Below, one piece after another: positions 1-35,107 of a stretch of 35,803 bases of DNA. The stretch lies in the IMG/VR virus record IMGVR_UViG_2548876858_000018; one strand, 5' to 3'. The DNA is from a virus. Taxonomy: Duplodnaviria; Heunggongvirae; Uroviricota; Caudoviricetes. Numbering within the stretch: position 1 is the first letter of the stretch; every line of letters starts with the position of its first letter. The position numbers and the translations under genes were made by a program. Below the pieces are notes generated by a model, which did not search any database, was not told the origin of the DNA, and saw only the letters and a program-made list of their open reading frames with translations.

Positions 1-1032
1 TTATTTACCTTGAGAATCTATAGGTAAGATCCCCTTAAAAATCAAAAAATCTGGATCGTAAGCATAATTGGCTAAAAAATCACCGTTATTGGCAGTTGCT
101 TGGAAAATAATTGTATTTTGATCAATTAGCATGTACAGAGATATCAATATATCTCGTAATCCACGAAGCATTTCTTTTATTTCTTTTTCATCTGAAAATG
201 ATGTTTCTATTCCTAAGTTTGATATCGGATCAAAAATCTCAAATTTGTTGACTTCTCTTTCATAATTAACTCCTAGTTCTCTACACAGCCATACCACTTG
301 TGCTTCAATGTTCTCTAAATTAGATATGTTAACTTGTTTTGGGTAAAGCTGATTGTATCTTGCTATTTCATGCCCAATGCTGTTATATATATTTTCTAAT
401 TTTTCAAGGAATGATTTATCAACTTCATTATTATATCCAGTAGAGATTGAGGATTTTGTGAATATTTTTTTATATAATGAGTAGGTATGATCTACAGATA
501 GTTTAATTGTGTCTTTTTCGAAAGTTGTATTATCTCGACGAGAAAGGGTAAATGACGGTAACGTTTTAAACATATCCGAATAATTCTTGAGGTGAGCGTA
601 GTAAGCATCACTGCGGTTTTTCTCAGTCACTAGATCTATCTGTTGCTGTGTTTTCCTAATTTGATTTTCCGTTTGTATTGTTCTGTGAATGTTAGCGACT
701 ATAGCTACAAAGGGTATCGAAAGGGAAAGAAGAGCGATAGGCAACTTGCTTATTTCAATGAAGTTTGAAAATCCATCAGCATCAAATTGAGGAGAGTGTC
801 CCATCCATGAGAATATACCGAAGTATAAGGATGAGATAATAGGTATTCTGATGGATTGTTTAAATAAATTTTGTTTTGTTAGCCTTTCCTCAGTCATTTC
901 GAAATAATTATTATTTTTGTTTTTTGTGTATTCAATAAATAGATATATTAAATAAAAAATTATAAGGAAAGTAGATATTTCTGGTTTTTTTATATAGCTA
1001 ATTACGAATTCTTGAGTCATGGTGTGGTCCAT
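1..1032 (-). CDS. Hypothetical membrane-anchored protein (about 3 predicted N-terminal TM helices, about 220-aa soluble C-terminal domain); AT-rich cargo gene next to int
   Basis: 343-aa ORF with stop at 1-3; start overlaps int 3' end by 16 bp; hydrophobic stretches ISTFLIIFYLIYLFIEY, IPIISSLYFGIFSWMGH, LPIALLSLSIPFVAIVANI; strongly AT-rich versus phage backbone; family not recognised. Confidence 0.55.
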   Translation of the reverse strand: MDHTMTQEFVISYIKKPEISTFLIIFYLIYLFIEYTKNKNNNYFEMTEERLTKQNLFKQSIRIPIISSLYFGIFSWMGHSPQFDADGFSNFIEISKLPIALLSLSIPFVAIVANIHRTIQTENQIRKTQQQIDLVTEKNRSDAYYAHLKNYSDMFKTLPSFTLSRRDNTTFEKDTIKLSVDHTYSLYKKIFTKSSISTGYNNEVDKSFLEKLENIYNSIGHEIARYNQLYPKQVNISNLENIEAQVVWLCRELGVNYEREVNKFEIFDPISNLGIETSFSDEKEIKEMLRGLRDILISLYMLIDQNTIIFQATANNGDFLANYAYDPDFLIFKGILPIDSQGK

Positions 1033-3077: not shown

Positions 3078-3587
3078 ATGTTTGATTACAAGATTTCCAA
3101 ACATCCGCATTTTGATGAAGCCTGTAGAGCTTTTGCACTACGCCACAATATGGCGAAGCTGGCAGAACGTGCAGGAATGAATGTTCAGACACTGCGAAAC
3201 AAACTCAACCCAGATCAACCGCATCAGCTCACAGCGCCAGAAATCTGGTTGCTTACCGATCTGACTGAAGATTCAACGCTGGTAGATGGCTTTCTGGCAC
3301 AGATTCACTGCCTACCATGTGTACCGATTAATGAGGTGGCAAAAGAGAAACTGCCACATTACGTCATGAGTGCAACCGCAGAGATCGGGCGTGTCGCGGC
3401 AGGTGCGGTATCTGGCGATGTAAAAACCTGTGCCGGTCGTCGTGATGCTATCAGCAGCATTAACTCTGTAACACGACTGATGGCGCTGGCGGCTGTTTCA
3501 TTGCAGGGCCGTTTACAGGCTAATCCTGCGATGGCGAGTGCAGTTGATACCGTGACTGGCCTCGGTGCTTCATTCGGATTGCTGTGA
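3078..3587 (+). CDS. cII: 186-type CII lysogeny-establishment activator
   Basis: 169 aa, same length and N-terminus (MFDYKISKHPHFDEACRAFALRHNMAKLAE...) as phage 186 CII as recalled; RBS GGGGG upstream. Confidence 0.85.
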   Translation: MFDYKISKHPHFDEACRAFALRHNMAKLAERAGMNVQTLRNKLNPDQPHQLTAPEIWLLTDLTEDSTLVDGFLAQIHCLPCVPINEVAKEKLPHYVMSATAEIGRVAAGAVSGDVKTCAGRRDAISSINSVTRLMALAAVSLQGRLQANPAMASAVDTVTGLGASFGLL

Positions 3588-8235: not shown

Positions 8236-8255
8236 TACTGTAAATATAAACAGTG
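8236..8255 (+). promoter_or_regulatory. LexA box (SOS operator) tACTGTaaatataaACAGtg overlapping a putative promoter
   Basis: Perfect CTGT-N8-ACAG with AT-rich centre, 40 bp upstream of ORF 8296; upstream TTTACA/TATACT elements. Confidence 0.6.
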
Positions 8256-8295
8256 GTTATGTATACAGTATTGCTTTGGTGTCATAGGAGGAAAG

Positions 8296-8484
8296 ATGCA
8301 GGACTATTTTTTGGAGTCTTTGAAGCTCCAGCGCATTGATTTTTTTCTTAAGCTTGTAGCGGCTAGTGAGTGTAGTGATGAAGAGAAGGGGCTGGCCCTG
8401 CAGTGGGTTTCTGAACTAACAGATGAACTCATGGCAAAAATCAGAACCCACGAATACAACCGCTCAATGGATGTCATCAGCTGA
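8296..8484 (+). CDS. Hypothetical small protein, possibly N-terminal part of a split Tum-like SOS antirepressor
   Basis: 62-aa ORF downstream of LexA box, RBS AGGAGG; immediately followed by DinI-like ORF. Confidence 0.4.
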   Translation: MQDYFLESLKLQRIDFFLKLVAASECSDEEKGLALQWVSELTDELMAKIRTHEYNRSMDVIS

Positions 8485-8494
8485 GGTGACTTTT

Positions 8495-8728
8495 ATGCGC
8501 ATTGAAATAATGATCGATAAAGAGCAGAAGATTAGCCAGTCTACCCTGGACGCTCTGGAGTCCGAGCTTTACCGCAACCTGCGCCCCCTGTATCCCAAAA
8601 CGGTAATTCGTATCCGCAAAGGTAGCTCTAACGGTGTGGAACTTACCGGACTGCAACTGGACGAAGAAAGAAAACAAGTGATGAAAATTATGCAGAAAGT
8701 GTGGGAAGACGACAGCTGGCTGCATTAA
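8495..8728 (+). CDS. DinI-like protein (Tum C-terminal-like)
   Basis: ATG 8495 (MRIEIMIDK...); resembles E. coli DinI (MRIEVTIAK..., C-terminal W-E-D-D-W motif). Confidence 0.75.
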   Translation: MRIEIMIDKEQKISQSTLDALESELYRNLRPLYPKTVIRIRKGSSNGVELTGLQLDEERKQVMKIMQKVWEDDSWLH

Positions 8729-9052: not shown

Positions 9053-10726
9053 ATGGAAAAATATCAAGATGAGGAATATGTAGATGATTTAACTGAGCGT
9101 GTTTTTCTCATTAAGCAACAACTGGAAGCGGGAAAACTAAAAATAGCTCATCATCTTGTAGAAGGTTTTATTGAAAGTTTTAAAAGAATAAGGCTGCGAC
9201 AGGATGGTAAAGTTGACCCTTCTACTGTTGATGGCAGAATAAGGGCTATGGGAGCAGCGGTTAATCACTTTTTAGAAAGAGAAGATATAAAAAACAAATA
9301 CTCTATTCAGGACTTGCAAAGTTCTTACTTTAATATTCTTTTTAGTAATTTTGGCGAGTTGTTTTATCTGATGAAAAAAACTAATGCAACGCCACATAAA
9401 GCATCAAGTTTTTTTTCTCAACAAGAAGAATATGTTAAGCAAATAGAAGATATTTTTCCTGAGTTATATAATCAGGTAATAGAGTTTTGGCAGGTAACAT
9501 CCGATATTGGTGTAATACATTTGCAGGATGGTTCTCAGTTTAAAGCTAATTTTTCTGGTGACTTATTTCCTGCATTTGATGAGAATGCTGTCTCTATTGC
9601 AGGGTTGTATGTTGATACTATTTCACTTCCATGTCCTATATTAAGAGTCGGTCGTCTCTATGAAAAGTCAGATAAGGCTGAGTTTACAAGGATACTTCTG
9701 AAGCATGTCCTAACATGTATGACATATAAAGAAGTAGCGCTTGAAGATATAGAGCCAGCAATAGTATTAATTTTGCCGGATAGAAGAGATTTTGAAACTG
9801 AGAGCAAAAAAAATTTGATGAGTTTTTGTGAGCCTTATGCTCTGACTCATGCGCAATATCTCTATGATCGACGGTTCGAAAGCTACGATGAATTTCGAGA
9901 TTTTAGTTATTCGATGAATGATATTGATGCTGTTCTTAAAAATATTAAGAGAGCAGATAGACTTATTTTTGATACAGCATGGGGGCTAAATCCAAAAACT
10001 CAATTAGAAAAACTACTATCTGATAAAAAAAGAATATCACGTAATGTTGTTGGTGATCATGCTGGAATGGAGGTTTTCCTTTCCTGCATTGGAAGAATGC
10101 CGCAAGCCTATTCAGCAAAATGTAATGCACAAGAACTTGGTAGTACTCCATATATAAATGCAGACACATCTTGGCTCTATTATACTTGGCTTATTGAGTA
10201 CGAATCTCTTAATTTTGATGTCAATGATATTGAACTAAAAAATTTGCATATGGTTCATGCGTTATCTGCTGGTATGCAAGATGGTTTTTCATGGTTAGGA
10301 AATGTACCGGTCAATAAAATAATTGAGTTGAGACGTAACAAATTGATGGAGGATGTAAGATCCATCTTATCAAATGGTGTTGACTCTTTAATCAATTCTT
10401 CGGCAGAGAGCTTTTCGAGGACAACGCAAAAAGTAATTGATAATGTAGACCGGGCTTTTATTGAACATCAAAGGATTCTTGCAAAAGCCCAAAAAGAGAA
10501 ATTGAGAATTTACGGACTAGATGTCCTACCATGTATCGCAAATGGTGCTATAGCAATTGCTGGAGCGCTGACTGGCAATACTACTTTAACGGCGTTAAGT
10601 GCAGGCCTTGGAGTAATAGGTATTCCGAGTATTAGTGATATCAAATCTAAATTTAAGCAGAGGCAAGAGAAGCTTGATGCCTATCAACGTTCTGTTACAG
10701 GTATACTCTTTAGCCATAAATCTTAA
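9053..10726 (+). CDS. Hypothetical 557-aa protein, AT-rich cargo gene in the cos-to-portal variable slot; C-terminal glycine-rich hydrophobic segment
   Basis: Long ORF with RBS GGAG; markedly AT-rich; flanked by terminators; no Walker A or nuclease motif recognised. Confidence 0.6.
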   Translation: MEKYQDEEYVDDLTERVFLIKQQLEAGKLKIAHHLVEGFIESFKRIRLRQDGKVDPSTVDGRIRAMGAAVNHFLEREDIKNKYSIQDLQSSYFNILFSNFGELFYLMKKTNATPHKASSFFSQQEEYVKQIEDIFPELYNQVIEFWQVTSDIGVIHLQDGSQFKANFSGDLFPAFDENAVSIAGLYVDTISLPCPILRVGRLYEKSDKAEFTRILLKHVLTCMTYKEVALEDIEPAIVLILPDRRDFETESKKNLMSFCEPYALTHAQYLYDRRFESYDEFRDFSYSMNDIDAVLKNIKRADRLIFDTAWGLNPKTQLEKLLSDKKRISRNVVGDHAGMEVFLSCIGRMPQAYSAKCNAQELGSTPYINADTSWLYYTWLIEYESLNFDVNDIELKNLHMVHALSAGMQDGFSWLGNVPVNKIIELRRNKLMEDVRSILSNGVDSLINSSAESFSRTTQKVIDNVDRAFIEHQRILAKAQKEKLRIYGLDVLPCIANGAIAIAGALTGNTTLTALSAGLGVIGIPSISDIKSKFKQRQEKLDAYQRSVTGILFSHKS

Positions 10727-32246: not shown

Positions 32247-32728
32247 TGATGGTGCTGGGATTGTACGTGTTTATGCTGCGCACCGTTCCGTATCAGGAAC
32301 TGCAGTATCAACGCAGCTGGCGACATGCGGCAAACAGTCGGGTAAACCGACGTCCGTCCACGCAGTTTCTGGGACCGGAAAACGACATGCTGACGCTTTC
32401 CGGTGTTCTTATGCCGGAAATAACAGGCGGCAGGCTGTCGTTGCTGGCACTGGAGCAGATGGCAGAACAGGGGAAAGCATGGCCCCTGATTGAAGGCAGC
32501 GGCACGATTTACGGCATGTATGTGATTGAGGGACTGAATCAGACTAAAACGGAGTTTTTCCGCGACGGTATGCCGCGCCGGATTGAGTTCACCCTGTCGC
32601 TCAAACGAGTGGATGAATCCCTGTCCGATATGTTCGGTGATCTCAGTGCGCAACTGAATAATTTGCAGGACACGGCAACGTCTGCCTTAAGCGATATCAG
32701 TAAAACGGTGGGAGGGCTGCTGTCGTGA
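32243..32728 (+). CDS. U: Tail protein U (P2 gpU family)
   Basis: 161 aa, overlapping T and D. Confidence 0.85.
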   Translation: MMMVLGLYVFMLRTVPYQELQYQRSWRHAANSRVNRRPSTQFLGPENDMLTLSGVLMPEITGGRLSLLALEQMAEQGKAWPLIEGSGTIYGMYVIEGLNQTKTEFFRDGMPRRIEFTLSLKRVDESLSDMFGDLSAQLNNLQDTATSALSDISKTVGGLLS

Positions 32729-33825
32729 ATTTCAGCTCTGAACTGCTTAACAAAGGCAACAAAACTCCCGCATTCAGCATCAGTATTGAGGGCAGGGATA
32801 TCACCACTGTGCTGGATAACCGCCTGATGAGTTTGACGCTGACGGATAACCGGGGCTTTGAAGCGGACCAGCTTGATCTGGAGCTGGATGACGCTGACGG
32901 AAAAATCGTGCTGCCGCGCCGTGGTGCGGTTATTACGCTGGCGCTGGGCTGGAAGGGGCAGCCGCTTTTCCCGAAAGGGGCATTCACAGTGGACGAGATT
33001 GAACACACTGGCGCACCGGACCGCCTGACTATCCGGGCGCGAAGTGCTGATTTTCGGGAAACGCTGAATACCCGCCGTGAAAAATCGTGGCATAAGACCA
33101 CCGTCGGGGAAGTGGTGAAGGAAATAGCCGCGCGGCACAAGCTGAAGATGGCACTGGGTAAAGACCTGTCGGATAAGCCCGTAGAGCATATAGACCAGAC
33201 TAATGAGAGTGACGGCAGTTTTCTGATGCGGCTGGCGCGACAGTACGGTGCCATCGCGTCGGTGAAAAATGGCAATCTGTTATTCATCCGGCAGGGGCAG
33301 GGCAAAAGCGCCACTGGTAAACCTCTGCCAGTGATCACTATCACACGCAAGGACGGCGACAGTCACCGATTTACCCTGGCAGATCGCGGAGCCTACACGG
33401 GCGTAATTGCCAGCTGGTTGCATACCCGCGAACCTGCGAAGAAAGAAAGCACCACGGTGAAGCGTAAGCGCAGAACTAAGAAGCAGAAGAAAGAGCCAGA
33501 AGCGAAGCAGGGCGATTACCTGGTGGGTACGGATGAAAACGTGCTGGTACTTAATCGCACTTATGCCAACCGGAGCAACGCCGAACGAGCGGCGAAAATG
33601 CAGTGGGAACGCCTGCAACGCGGCGTTGCGTCATTTTCGCTACAACTGGCAGAAGGGCGGGCAGATCTCTACACGGAAATGCCTGTGAAGGTCAGTGGTT
33701 TTAAACAGCCGATAGATGATGCGGAATGGACCATTACGACTCTGACACATACCGTCAGCCCGGATAACGGTTTTACAACCAGTATTGAACTCGAAGTGAA
33801 GATTGATGATCTTGAAATGGAATAA
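32725..33825 (+). CDS. D: Tail protein D (P2 gpD family)
   Basis: 366 aa, last tail gene before ogr. Confidence 0.85.
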   Translation: MNFSSELLNKGNKTPAFSISIEGRDITTVLDNRLMSLTLTDNRGFEADQLDLELDDADGKIVLPRRGAVITLALGWKGQPLFPKGAFTVDEIEHTGAPDRLTIRARSADFRETLNTRREKSWHKTTVGEVVKEIAARHKLKMALGKDLSDKPVEHIDQTNESDGSFLMRLARQYGAIASVKNGNLLFIRQGQGKSATGKPLPVITITRKDGDSHRFTLADRGAYTGVIASWLHTREPAKKESTTVKRKRRTKKQKKEPEAKQGDYLVGTDENVLVLNRTYANRSNAERAAKMQWERLQRGVASFSLQLAEGRADLYTEMPVKVSGFKQPIDDAEWTITTLTHTVSPDNGFTTSIELEVKIDDLEME

Positions 33826-33893: not shown

Positions 33894-34112
33894 ATGATGA
33901 ATTGTCCAAAGTGTGGTCATGCGGCACACACAAGGAGCAGTTTTCAAGTAACTGAAAGCACCAAAGAGCGTTACTGCCAGTGCCAAAATATTAACTGCGG
34001 GAGCACTTTTGTTACTCATGAAACAGTGGTCCGGTTTATTGTGACACCCGCACTGATTGCTACTGCTCCTCCACATCCATTGCCAGGTGGTCAGGGGCAT
34101 ATGAATTTTTGA
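33894..34112 (+). CDS. ogr: Ogr/Delta-type zinc-finger late transcription activator
   Basis: MMNCPKCGHAAHTRSS...KERYCQCQNINCGSTF... matches P2 Ogr C-x2-C...C-x4-C pattern; ORF-track start 33849 is upstream in-frame. Confidence 0.8.
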   Translation: MMNCPKCGHAAHTRSSFQVTESTKERYCQCQNINCGSTFVTHETVVRFIVTPALIATAPPHPLPGGQGHMNF

Positions 34113-34119
34113 GAAAGAG

Positions 34120-34143
34120 AACCTGCTACGGCAGGTTTTTATT
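34120..34143. terminator. Hairpin terminator after ogr (overlaps stop of convergent gene)
   Basis: AACCTGC-tacg-GCAGGTT followed by TTTTTATT. Confidence 0.5.
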
Positions 34144-34621
34144 CATCTGGGATCTCACCCGTTTCAAGAAAATGTATAAAGCCAGGCTCATCTATGATGA
34201 TTGTGCCTTTCATCCTGGCTGCCGATACTTTTGATGGGCCTGCATTGTAACCGCAACAGAGCATCTGAAGGCTTTGGGTTATAGAGGTTCTTACCGTTAA
34301 TCCTTGTTCATTCGCCTTATCAACCAATCTTTCTTTATCTGCTTTCTTAAATCCGGTGAAACACACATCGAATGTATTTTTTTTCGGACCAGACTGCTTA
34401 GTGAGATGTGAGTAGCTTTCGGGGAGGAATGACGCGCATTCCTGAATGGCTTGTTCTGGTGAATCGTACTGTTTAAGAATGCGGTCTTTTCGGAAGGTTT
34501 TTATTCGATCGGTGTTCTTACAAATGCCCTGTATATGATTTTCGCTATAACTGATGCTCTGTATAGAGTGAACAGCGATACGACCATTTGCATTGATGTA
34601 AACAAAGTGAAGTTCTTCCAT
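34139..34621 (-). CDS. Hypothetical protein with N-terminal WYL-like domain and C-terminal BRCT-like domain; cargo gene between ogr and attR
   Basis: 160 aa; N-terminal FVYINANGRIAVHSIQ...GIC...DRIKTFRKDRI fits WYL-domain pattern ending RTFRxDRI; C-terminal CFTGF...GLTV...AGPSKV.AA...G..IIDE..F..FL fits BRCT pattern as in LigA; lower GC than phage backbone. Confidence 0.6.
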   Translation of the reverse strand: MEELHFVYINANGRIAVHSIQSISYSENHIQGICKNTDRIKTFRKDRILKQYDSPEQAIQECASFLPESYSHLTKQSGPKKNTFDVCFTGFKKADKERLVDKANEQGLTVRTSITQSLQMLCCGYNAGPSKVSAARMKGTIIIDEPGFIHFLETGEIPDE

Positions 34622-34704
34622 GTGAAACCTCTTTGCATGATTTCAAGATGGCGACAGGCAAGATGGACGCAAAAGTCTGTCGCCATTTTGCCGCCACTAC
34701 CAAA

Positions 34705-34734
34705 GAAAAAGGGGCTACGCTTTCACGTAACCCC
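34705..34734 (-). terminator. Rho-independent terminator downstream of ssrA (supplied by prophage end)
   Basis: On minus strand GGGGTTACG-tgaaag-CGTAGCCCC followed by TTTTTTC. Confidence 0.5.
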
Positions 34735-34744
34735 TTGATTTATT

Positions 34745-35107
34745 TGGTGGAGCTGGCGGGAGTTGAACCCGCGTCCGAAATTCCTACATCCTCGGTACTA
34801 CATGCTTAGTCAGTCTTTACATTCGCTTGCCAGCTGCGGACGGACACGCCACTAACAAACTAGCCTGATTAAGTTTTAACGCTTCAACCCCAGGCAGGGC
34901 TTCCACGCGATCTCTTTTGGGTTTGACCTCTCTTGATCCCCGTCCTAAGAGCGGAGGCTAGGGAGAGAGGGCTCTAAGCAGGTTATTAAGCTGCTAAAGC
35001 GTAGTTTTCGTCGTTTGCGACTATTTTTTGCGGCTTTTTACGAGGCCAACCGCCCCTCGGCATGCACCTTGGGTTTCGCAAATCCCGTCGAATCCAGAAT
35101 CAGCCCC
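34745..35107 (-). ncRNA. ssrA: tmRNA (SsrA)
   Basis: Reverse complement begins GGGGCTGATTCTGGATTCGACGGG and ends ...GGTTCAACTCCCGCCAGCTCCACCA; contains tag-reading-frame region. Confidence 0.92.

What the first reader, a model, noticed from the sequence alone, without database searches (positions are those of the whole stretch)
34139..34621. WYL-like plus BRCT-like two-domain protein inserted between ogr and attR
Seen: in P2-type genomes ogr is normally the last gene before att, but here a convergent 160-aa gene with lower GC sits between ogr and the ssrA junction, sharing a bidirectional hairpin with ogr. The N-terminal about 70 aa fits the WYL-domain pattern (…G.I.V.S…Y…G.C…DRIKTFRKDRI, the characteristic RTFRxDRI ending) with the W-Y-L triad replaced. 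The C-terminal about 80 aa fits a BRCT fold pattern (CFTGF…GLTV…SKV.AA…IIDE..F..FL), comparable to the LigA BRCT. Established: WYL domains are ligand/nucleic-acid sensing modules frequent in defence-island regulators, and BRCT domains bind DNA ends or phosphoproteins. Inference: a sensor or regulator (or standalone defence/anti-defence factor) carried as prophage cargo; no HTH or effector domain is visible, which is an unusual architecture.
Basis: partly seen in the sequence, partly recalled or inferred. Interest (0 to 1): 0.7.

Follow-up and report, generated by a model that had tools for sequence, protein, structure and literature searches.

The report
Phage WYL–BRCT DNA-sensing protein
A small, uncharacterised protein of a P2/186-like prophage really does consist of a WYL (single-stranded-DNA-sensing) domain joined to a ligase-type BRCT (DNA-phosphate-binding) domain. 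It is a fixed gene of this phage lineage rather than inserted cargo, and it probably binds DNA gaps or ends in lysogens, though its role is untested.

Summary
The ORF is real: 34139-34621, minus strand, 160 aa, convergent with ogr across a shared hairpin, 41% GC. Both domain calls hold.

- **No HTH, WCX or enzyme domain.** The database labels "DNA ligase" and "exonuclease" are artefacts of the BRCT match.

The "inserted cargo" reading fails. X-ogr-D synteny holds in 80/80 viral contigs. No E. coli genome keeps this ogr without X.

In other temperate phages the gene lies just downstream of the immunity repressor, the position of rexAB and bstA. Here attP separates it from cI-int, so in the prophage it follows ssrA and a terminator.

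Relatives carry the same module with membrane anchors or an unknown 220-aa domain.

Best guess (0.35): a lysogen-expressed binder of ssDNA/5'-phosphate junctions that excludes other phages. Function is untested. It is a new variant of a known kind, of moderate interest.

The parts
34139..34621 (-). Gene X: 160-aa WYL-BRCT protein (RefSeq WP_000391793.1, named 'BRCT domain-containing protein' or 'hypothetical protein')
   Evidence: ORF list. RefSeq annotation. PHROG phrog_2561 matches over the full length at 2.4e-76. AlphaFold2 mean pLDDT 91.2. Purifying selection.
34466..34615 (-). WYL-type Sm-like beta-barrel, residues 3-52 (five strands). The WYL triad reads N28-H29-I30. The motif K41-T-F-R44-K-D-R47-I is kept.
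34400..34459 (-). Two short helices (residues 55-74), followed by a low-confidence linker to residue 83. There is no WCX domain.
   Evidence: Secondary structure and pLDDT profile of the models.
34142..34372 (-). BRCT domain of the LigA/Rfc1 subclass, residues 84-160. The phosphate pocket is T89, G90, K96, K131. The C-terminal ETGE(I/V)P tail is conserved.
34628..34633 (-). Ribosome-binding site AAGAGG, 6 nt upstream of the ATG
   Evidence: Read directly from the sequence.
34120..34137 (.). Hairpin AACCTGC-TACG-GCAGGTT between the convergent stop codons of ogr and X; a likely bidirectional terminator
   Evidence: Terminator scan, minus strand. Sequence.
33894..34112 (+). ogr, the late-gene activator and convergent neighbour of X
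   Evidence: Pfam Ogr_Delta 1.5e-20. RefSeq annotation. Convergent with X in 80/80 viral loci.
34680..34698 (-). GTGGCGGCAAAATGGCGAC. The motifs TGGCGGCA and TGGCGAC also occur on the other side of the core in attP, so these are probably integrase arm-type sites of the P' arm.
   Evidence: attP alignment of the window with phages Cartapus and MLG42. The assignment as integrase sites is inference.
34709..34736 (-). Phage-supplied intrinsic terminator immediately after the ssrA 3' end, lying between ssrA and X
   Evidence: Terminator scan: 12 pairs followed by a T-run. Present in attP of free phages; in MLG42 a stem base change (G to A) keeps the pair.
34745..34789 (-). att core: the last ~45 nt of ssrA, shared by the host junction and phage attP
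   Evidence: Alignment. attP-form viral contigs carry only 45-48 nt of ssrA between int and X (L025 and L066).

Best explanation
X is a stand-alone nucleic-acid-structure binder made of two recognition modules and no catalytic or effector domain.

**Proposed molecular function.**

- The WYL barrel provides a single-stranded-DNA groove. It keeps the arginine pair that is essential in PafBC.
- The LigA/Rfc1-type BRCT provides a pocket for a DNA 5'-phosphate or backbone phosphate.
- The two domains sit on a flexible ~30-residue linker. Together they should recognise ssDNA next to a phosphorylated duplex end. Such structures include gaps, nicks with flaps, resected or cohesive ends, and replication intermediates.

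**Proposed biological role.**

- X belongs to the lysogeny side of temperate phages, downstream of and co-oriented with the immunity repressor.
- It most likely acts in the lysogen on the DNA of superinfecting or competing phages, blocking end-joining or ligation, or replication. This would be a single-protein exclusion function at the same genomic position as rexAB and bstA.

**What is shown and what is inferred.**

- Shown: the architecture, the conservation of ligand-contact residues, the synteny, and the modular relatives.
- Inferred: DNA binding itself, the preferred substrate, expression in the lysogen, and the exclusion phenotype.
For: **Domains**

- BRCT fold. WYL fold. Profile links to solved WYL and BRCT proteins.

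**Ligand-contact residues**

- The yeast Rfc1 5'-phosphate site is T166/G167/R174/K209 (PMC9359705). It aligns with X T89/G90/K96/K131. These columns are invariant or nearly invariant in 42 family members.
- The PafB arginines R211/R214 are essential for ssDNA binding (PMC11804915). They align with X R44/R47, and R208 aligns with K41.

**Precedent for WYL as an ssDNA sensor**

- CapW, DriD and PafBC all bind ssDNA through the WYL domain (PMC11662680).

**Genomic position**

- X lies directly after the repressor on the same strand in Mannheimia PHL101, Vibrio PV94 and metagenomic contig L009, where the order is cI-X-int.
- It also lies in the repressor-side operon in L010, Burkholderia phages and a Pseudomonas lambdoid phage.
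- Genes at this position (rexAB, bstA) are repressor-co-transcribed defence genes (bioRxiv 10.1101/2020.07.13.199331).

**Modularity**

- The WYL-BRCT pair is kept as a unit.
- It recurs with N- or C-terminal membrane anchors, or with an unknown ~220-aa domain. That pattern is typical of sensor modules of defence genes.
- More distant members lie next to integrases or in islands with Mrr and a DNA methylase.
Against: - No experiment exists, and no paper on the family was found.
- X has no effector domain and no hit to any defence model beyond shared domains (PADLOC).
- In this lineage attP and a strong terminator separate X from cI-int, and also from ssrA in the prophage. No sigma-70-like promoter was found in the 88 bp upstream. 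Expression in the lysogen is therefore unproven.
- Several contact residues differ from solved WYL proteins. PafB R181 corresponds to H18, the WYL tyrosine to H29, and the flanking arginines of CapW's RWHVR motif are absent. The WCX domain that closes the ssDNA tunnel in CapW and PafBC is also missing.
- The protein is nearly neutral (pI 6.95) and its BRCT is acidic (pI 5.3). That argues against strong non-specific DNA binding.
- X is fixed in its lineage rather than swapped like hotspot defence cargo.
Confidence: 0.35

Rival explanations
1. X is a DNA-damage (ssDNA-gap) sensor or modulator serving the phage's own lysis-lysogeny switch. It would bind gaps at the 5' junction and either signal to the repressor circuit or shield gaps from RecFOR/RecA, so tuning SOS-dependent induction.
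For: - Every characterised WYL regulator that aligns with X (PafBC, DriD, CapW) senses ssDNA produced by damage.
- X is tightly linked to the immunity repressor. Its start lies 3 nt after the cI stop in L009, and inside the cI operon in PHL101.
- One relative (P0185) carries a weak N-terminal HTH/CII-like region in front of WYL-BRCT.
Against: - X has no HTH and no known protein-interaction surface.
- This phage already has the 186-type induction device: a consensus LexA box at 8238-8253 in front of Tum/DinI-like ORFs.
- Membrane-anchored, island-borne and solitary chromosomal relatives do not fit a switch-specific role.
- The HTH fusion is a single weak case (E 0.002, below Pfam's cut-off).
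Confidence: 0.2
2. X helps the phage's own DNA transactions at its ends or at att. Examples are protecting or aligning cohesive ends for ligation by host LigA, or acting as an accessory factor for integration or excision next to attP.
For: - The BRCT is of the LigA type.
- X lies immediately beside attP and the probable integrase arm sites in this lineage, or between cI and int in others.
- It is lineage-fixed like a core gene.
Against: - Only 28 of 50,697 phage records match. None of the organism names in that search's tally is P2 or 186, so X is not part of the shared P2-like core.
- X cannot be present before injected DNA circularises unless it is packaged in the virion.
- It occurs in non-phage islands, as a solitary chromosomal gene and in membrane-anchored form.
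- X diverges faster than its neighbours Ogr and D: 70% identity against 90% and 88%.
Confidence: 0.15
3. X binds a small phosphorylated ligand rather than DNA, and acts as a sponge or reader. Candidate ligands are a nucleotide second messenger, ADP-ribose or ADP-ribosylated DNA, or a phosphoprotein. X might then work as an anti-defence factor.
For: - WYL was first proposed as a sensor of nucleotides or nucleic-acid fragments (PMC4012209).
- The BRCT TG...K pocket is the same pocket that binds phosphopeptides in tandem BRCTs (PMC9359705).
- X is small, has no effector and is near-neutral.
Against: - All solved WYL ligands in the aligned proteins are ssDNA.
- X keeps the Ser/Thr-rich strand-loop that aligns with Rfc1's DNA-backbone contacts: R111-T112-S113-x-T115-Q116 against T189-K190-S191-x-S193-S194.
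- A position in the lysogeny operon is unusual for an anti-defence gene, which is needed early in infection.
Confidence: 0.1
4. X is what the databases call it: a DNA ligase (PHROG, RefSeq phage records) or an exonuclease (Cartapus annotation), or a decayed fragment of one.
For: The names appear. There are weak matches to LigA and to a DEDDh exonuclease model.
Against: - Those matches cover only the BRCT and are far below the cut-offs: TIGR00575 scores 17.6 bits against 444, and PRK06063 scores 24.9 against 389.
- The remainder of the protein is a WYL barrel, not an adenylation, OB or exonuclease domain.
- The 160-aa length is conserved across genera under purifying selection.
Confidence: 0.01

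Closest known systems
wHTH-WYL-WCX transcription factors (PafBC, DriD, CapW, BrxR)
   Same: - Same WYL Sm-like barrel: these are the best structural matches, with a profile-level sequence link.
- The arginine pair essential for ssDNA binding is conserved.
- These proteins are linked to DNA damage or phage infection, and many sit beside defence systems.
   Different: - X has no HTH, so it cannot be a sequence-specific regulator of this type.
- X has no WCX domain to close the ssDNA tunnel.
- The W-Y-L triad is N-H-I in X.
- A BRCT follows the barrel instead.
Single DNA-binding BRCT domains of bacterial NAD-dependent ligase LigA, eukaryotic Rfc1 and PARP1
   Same: - Best sequence-profile matches.
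- The TG...K/R...K phosphate pocket and the Ser/Thr-rich DNA-contact strand are conserved.
- It occurs as a single BRCT, not a tandem pair.
   Different: - In X the domain is not attached to any enzyme or clamp loader.
- X's BRCT is acidic overall.
- It carries a conserved ETGE(I/V)P tail of unknown role.
Repressor-linked prophage defence genes: lambda rexAB and BstA of BTP1
   Same: Same genomic logic in the relatives of X: a gene immediately downstream of the immunity repressor on the same strand. BstA likewise has a putative DNA-binding domain and no recognisable enzyme domain.
   Different: - There is no sequence or fold relationship.
- No phenotype is known for X.
- In the window's lineage the gene has moved across attP, so it is no longer behind cI in the prophage.
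PADLOC candidate system PDC-S48
   Same: It shares a C-terminal BRCT (4e-7, profile positions 334-406 of 411).
   Different: Only the BRCT aligns. Neither X nor its 400-aa relatives match the first ~320 positions, so X is not a member.
WYL+BRCT domain combination listed by Makarova et al. 2014
   Same: The same pairing of domains is mentioned in a list of WYL fusions (PMC4012209).
   Different: It is listed only in passing. That passage gives no family description, context, structure or function.

Membership tests
WYL domain (Pfam PF13280) | Sm-like five-stranded SH3-type beta-barrel fold | tested here: met
WYL domain (Pfam PF13280) | Significant match to a WYL sequence profile | tested here: inconclusive
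   X alone gives no Pfam WYL hit at E<=10 and scores 0.041 on the PADLOC WYL model. 5 of 42 family members hit Pfam WYL, best 0.0018. The link holds at family level: a broadened N-domain profile hits PafBC 7.7e-7 and PafC 7e-5 in the PDB. Relatives P0119 and P0185, matched by the X N-domain profile at 7.8e-19 and 3.6e-11, pass Pfam's WYL cut-off with 28.5 bits.
WYL domain (Pfam PF13280) | Trp-Tyr-Leu motif on the third strand | tested here: not met
   The alignment to PafB (R-W195-Y196-L197-V) puts N28-H29-I30 of X at W-Y-L. The wider family consensus keeps Tyr at the central position.
WYL domain (Pfam PF13280) | Conserved arginines of the R-x-F-R-x-x-R-I motif that contact ssDNA | tested here: met
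   K41-T-F-R44-K-D-R47-I aligns with PafB R208-T-F-R211-L-S-R214-I. R211/R214 are essential for ssDNA binding (PMC11804915). F43 is invariant, and T42 and R44 are invariant or nearly so.
wHTH-WYL-WCX regulators (CapW/BrxR/PafBC/DriD) | N-terminal winged-helix DNA-binding domain | tested here: not met
   The WYL barrel starts at residue 3. There is no HTH hit in Pfam or NCBIfam.
wHTH-WYL-WCX regulators (CapW/BrxR/PafBC/DriD) | C-terminal WCX domain that forms the ssDNA tunnel together with WYL | tested here: not met
   Only two short helices (residues 55-74) and a linker lie between the barrel and the BRCT. In CapW the WCX spans about 100 residues (PMC11662680).
BRCT domain (Pfam PF00533) | BRCT fold (beta-alpha-beta-beta-alpha-beta-alpha) | tested here: met
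BRCT domain (Pfam PF00533) | Score above Pfam's gathering threshold | tested here: inconclusive
   X scores 18.6 bits against a cut-off of 21.3. 35 of 42 family members match, best 2.1e-6. Many homologues carry a precomputed PF00533 hit. The family profile hits the LigA BRCT at 4e-5.
DNA-binding single-BRCT subclass (LigA/Rfc1/PARP1) | TG motif plus basic residues forming the 5'-phosphate pocket (yeast Rfc1 T166, G167, R174, K209) | tested here: met
   The alignment pairs these with X T89, G90, K96, K131. T89, G90 and K131 are invariant and K96 is conserved in at least 90% of members. The residue roles come from PMC9359705.
DNA-binding single-BRCT subclass (LigA/Rfc1/PARP1) | Actual binding of 5'-phosphorylated or nicked DNA | not testable with these tools
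   This needs a gel-shift or anisotropy assay with purified protein.
NAD-dependent DNA ligase LigA | Adenylation, OB, zinc-finger and HhH domains | tested here: not met
   TIGR00575 scores 17.6 bits against a cut-off of 444, and the match covers only the C-terminal end of the model. X is 160 aa.
PADLOC PDC-S48 | Match over the whole ~411-position model | tested here: not met
   Only profile positions 334-406 match, in X and in nine of the ten relatives tested (the tenth had no hit).
Variable cargo of a P2-like prophage hotspot | The slot is occupied by different genes in closely related phages | tested here: not met
   80/80 IMG/VR loci keep X-ogr, and 79/80 also keep D. In E. coli genomes no match retains ogr without X. 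By contrast the attL-int slot of the same phage is variable.

The most novel reading that the evidence does not exclude
The WYL-BRCT pair is the sensor of a previously unrecognised, widespread single-gene system carried by mobile elements. It would recognise a defined DNA structure: ssDNA next to a 5'-phosphorylated duplex end, such as annealed or free cohesive ends, replication gaps or resected ends.

- The stand-alone 160-aa form would act by occlusion, for example by blocking LigA or recombination proteins on invading phage DNA.
- The membrane-anchored forms, and the forms fused to the unknown 220-aa domain, would couple the same sensor to an effector.

X would then be the minimal founding member of a new family of exclusion or defence proteins encoded at the rexAB/bstA position.
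Probability: 0.2. Interest if true: 0.7.

Novelty: new variant of a known kind. Interest (0 to 1): 0.45.

Why it matters
WYL domains are currently understood as ssDNA sensors wired to an HTH, which turns DNA damage or infection into transcription. This family has the same sensor with no HTH. It is wired instead to a ligase-type BRCT, and in relatives to membrane anchors or an unknown domain.

If X binds ssDNA/5'-phosphate junctions, it would show that the WYL sensor is also used in non-transcriptional roles. It could also give a compact, easily testable example of how a prophage protein without enzymatic activity interferes with foreign DNA.

On the practical side, the "DNA ligase" and "exonuclease" labels on this family in PHROGs and GenBank are wrong. 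Gene X is present in about 3% of complete E. coli genomes.

Tried and rejected
- **Direct Pfam or NCBIfam assignment of X alone.** BRCT scores just under the cut-off and WYL gives no hit. A family alignment and structure models were needed.
- **Narrow N-domain profile (A2) against the PDB.** Only chance hits such as TubZ and streptokinase. A profile broadened with distant relatives (A3) was required.
- **PDC-S48 membership.** Rejected, because only the BRCT is shared.
- **Identity of the ~220-aa domain fused to WYL-BRCT in relatives.** No Pfam family. The PDB profile search gave only spurious gp120 hits, and phmmer gave nothing.
- **Promoter for X.** No sigma-70-like site lies between the ssrA terminator and the start codon. 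The region is not conserved in MLG42.
- **Literature.** No paper on a WYL-BRCT phage protein was found, only the one-line mention from 2014.
- **Recent capture from host ligA.** Rejected, because E. coli LigA is only a weak match (E 0.06).
- **DNA-damage sensor for induction.** Weakened by finding the LexA box and Tum-like genes.

Full report
**1. The observation**

The window ends with a P2/186-like prophage integrated into ssrA. The relevant features are D (32725-33825, +), ogr (33894-34112, +; Pfam Ogr_Delta 1.5e-20), the target ORF X (34139-34621, -; 160 aa), ssrA (34745-35107, -) and smpB.

- X has an AAGAGG ribosome-binding site 6 nt before its ATG.
- X is convergent with ogr. Between the two stop codons lies the 7-bp-stem hairpin at 34120-34137, which the scan flags as terminator-like.
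- X is 41.4% GC against 51.1% for the prophage. cI (39.7%), ogr (44.7%) and int (45.8%) are similarly low.
- X is a real gene under purifying selection. Against Cartapus, dN is 0.013 and dS 0.074. Against Yersinia phage MLG42, pN is 0.19 with synonymous sites saturated.

**2. The BRCT domain**

- On its own, X scores just below Pfam's BRCT cut-off (18.6 against 21.3 bits).
- A search of 5.8 billion proteins returned 112 homologues, mostly ~160 aa, from many Enterobacterales and beyond.
- In a 42-member alignment, 35 members hit Pfam BRCT, best 2.1e-6.
- The family profile hits the solved BRCT domains of Thermus LigA (4e-5) and yeast and human Rfc1 (6e-5 to 1e-4).
- An AlphaFold2 model built with this alignment has mean pLDDT 91.2 and pTM 0.51.

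**3. The WYL domain**

- A separate model of residues 1-76 has pLDDT 91 and pTM 0.77. It shows a five-stranded barrel followed by two short helices.
- At sequence level, a profile of the N-domain found 610 cluster representatives among 1.84 billion.
- Longer relatives such as P0119 and P0185 pass Pfam's WYL cut-off (28.5 bits) and also carry a BRCT.
- A profile broadened with such relatives hits solved PafBC (7.7e-7), PafC (7e-5) and PafB (2.6e-3).

X has no HTH, no WCX and no enzymatic domain.

**4. Ligand-contact residues**

*BRCT.* The alignment to yeast Rfc1 pairs X T89, G90, K96 and K131 with Rfc1 T166, G167, R174 and K209. Those four residues form Rfc1's binding site for a DNA 5'-phosphate (PMC9359705).

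- T89, G90 and K131 are invariant, and K96 is nearly invariant, in the family.
- X R111-T112-S113-x-T115-Q116 aligns with Rfc1's DNA-backbone contacts T189-K190-S191-x-S193-S194.

*WYL.* The alignment to M. smegmatis PafB was read against mutagenesis data (PMC11804915).

- The arginine pair essential for ssDNA binding, R211/R214, aligns with X R44/R47.
- R208 aligns with K41. R181 aligns with H18, where the family consensus is R.
- The WYL tyrosine Y196 aligns with H29, where the family consensus is Y. W and L correspond to N28 and I30.
- The arginines flanking the motif in CapW (RWHVR; PMC11662680) are absent.

The phosphate pocket is thus fully conserved, while the ssDNA groove is only partly conserved. 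One caveat is that X is nearly neutral (pI 6.95) and its BRCT half is acidic (pI 5.3).

**5. Not an insertion**

- X occurs in free phage genomes next to ogr: Escherichia phages Cartapus and 500465-1 and Yersinia phage MLG42, of the genus Elveevirus.
- Aligning the window's junction with their attP shows that identity begins at the last ~45 nt of ssrA. It then continues through a strong terminator (34709-34736), a probable integrase arm-type repeat (34680-34698) and X itself.
- X is therefore phage DNA on the P' side of attP. The circular order is cI-int-(variable gene)-attP-X, followed by convergent ogr and D.
- In E. coli complete genomes, coverage of the ogr-X-junction query falls straight from at least 84% (170 of 5,426 genomes) to 9%. 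No genome keeps this ogr without X.
- In IMG/VR, 80 of 80 loci have X convergent with ogr, and 79 of 80 also have D. This holds down to 55% identity of X.
- X diverges faster than its neighbours: 70% identity against 90% for Ogr and 88% for D.
- By contrast the slot between attL and int is truly variable. It holds a 343-aa orphan here, a RES-domain protein in Cartapus and a dCTP deaminase in strain G5.

**6. Position in other temperate phages**

- In Mannheimia phage PHL101, X follows the CI-like repressor in the same operon, and its annotated ribosome-binding site lies inside cI.
- In Vibrio PV94 the order is repressor-X-orf-int.
- In metagenomic contig L009 the order is cI-X-int, with only 3 nt between cI and X.
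- In L010 the order is HTH-Flk_N-X-YebY-int.
- In Burkholderia phages the order is XRE-orf-X, with D convergent.
- In a Pseudomonas lambdoid phage an S24-type CI repressor is followed by a 99-aa ORF and then X, on the strand opposite to cro, cII and the replication genes.
- More distant members lie in an island with Mrr, a DNA methylase and an integrase, next to a P4-type integrase, beside transposase genes, or alone in a chromosome.

No conserved partner gene was seen. The position behind the repressor is that of lambda rexAB and of bstA. Both are defence genes thought to share the repressor's promoter (bioRxiv 10.1101/2020.07.13.199331).

**7. Modular relatives**

Local domain mapping covered 249 proteins carrying the N-domain.

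- Of the 156 proteins that are 140-200 aa long, 145 are the plain stand-alone WYL-BRCT form.
- About 30 add one to three predicted transmembrane helices at the N- or C-terminus.
- About 10 add an unknown ~220-aa domain on either side. It corresponds to the extra region of phrog_36782 and has no Pfam or PDB match.
- Some duplicate the WYL or the BRCT.
- The WYL-BRCT pair is almost never separated.

Makarova et al. (2014) listed a WYL+BRCT fusion in passing (PMC4012209). No functional study was found.

**8. How it most likely works**

The best-supported reading is a two-handed DNA-structure binder. The WYL domain would hold ssDNA and the BRCT would hold an adjacent 5'-phosphate or duplex backbone. 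X would thus recognise gaps, nicks with flaps, cohesive or resected ends, or replication intermediates.

Three facts bear on its role: its place on the lysogeny side of temperate phages, its spread on mobile elements, and its sensor-like modularity. Together they favour a lysogen-expressed exclusion function acting on other phages' DNA (confidence 0.35).

The rivals are:

- a damage sensor or modulator of the phage's own switch (0.20). This is weakened by the LexA box at 8238-8253 in front of Tum/DinI-like ORFs;
- a helper of the phage's own end-joining or integration (0.15);
- a binder of a small phosphorylated ligand (0.10);
- the database labels "DNA ligase" or "exonuclease" (0.01). The only matches to those models are far below cut-off and confined to their BRCT-bearing ends, so both labels are artefacts of BRCT similarity.

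**9. Open problem**

In this lineage the terminator and attP lie between X and any upstream promoter, both in the prophage (ssrA) and in the circular form (int). No sigma-70-like promoter was found in the 88 bp before the gene. When and how X is expressed is therefore unknown.

**10. Verdict**

- The "inserted cargo" framing is not supported.
- X is an uncharacterised, lineage-fixed member of a sizeable WYL-BRCT family. This is a new variant of the known WYL-sensor kind, of moderate interest, and can be tested with simple biochemistry and phage genetics.

Noticed in passing
window 1-1032 (- strand): A 343-aa ORF with 31% GC and no Pfam or PADLOC hit lies between the prophage's left end and int. 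The same slot holds a RES-domain protein in phage Cartapus and a (frameshifted) anti-phage dCTP deaminase in E. coli G5. This slot, not the ogr-attR gap, is the variable cargo spot of the phage.
   Followed up: partly
window 9053-10726 (+ strand): A 557-aa ORF with 35% GC and no Pfam hit lies between the replication gene A/Tum region and the portal gene, which is the old/tin position of P2 (position recalled from the P2 map, not tested here). It has a weak PADLOC match to DitB (7.3e-10, residues 195-452) and may be a defence gene.
   Followed up: partly
window 8238-8728: A consensus LexA box, CTGTAAATATAAACAG (8238-8253), lies just upstream of ORFs 8296-8484 and 8423-8728. By eye (recalled similarity, not tested with a tool) the latter looks DinI/Tum-like. 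This suggests 186-type SOS induction through an antirepressor.
   Followed up: partly
window 34683-34759; loci L017 and L018 at 3501-3576: About 820 E. coli genomes without this prophage carry only this 77-bp stretch (ssrA end, terminator and first arm repeat). In the two genomes inspected it lies next to a fragment of a recombinase gene near ypjA. This looks like a relic att site from an older element.
   Followed up: partly
hit H1/H44, NZ_CP020835.1 1261412-1263149: In strain CFSAN051542 an IS1 element lies inside the ogr-X-ssrA stretch. Two 'hypothetical protein' features are annotated there, so X may be disrupted in that strain.
   Followed up: no
proteins P0164, P0168, P0215, P0234 (C-terminal) and P0117, P0129, P0248 (N-terminal); alignment A5: An unknown ~220-aa domain is fused on either side of WYL-BRCT. 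Its recurring motifs are GW.FAVP..F, WTQGH.F.F and TQV.FV.LLQ.G. It matches only phrog_36782 (function unknown) and nothing in Pfam or the PDB.
   Followed up: partly
proteins P0097, P0105, P0119, P0123, P0127, P0186, P0210, P0229 and others: Many relatives anchor the WYL-BRCT module to the membrane with one to three predicted N-terminal helices, or with C-terminal ones (P0156, P0205). The prediction is a simple hydropathy scan only.
   Followed up: partly
window 34643-34677 (- strand): An 8-bp inverted repeat, GGCGACAG...CTGTCGCC, with a 19-nt loop lies between the arm-type repeat and the X ribosome-binding site. It is identical in Cartapus but not conserved in MLG42. Its role is unknown.
   Followed up: no
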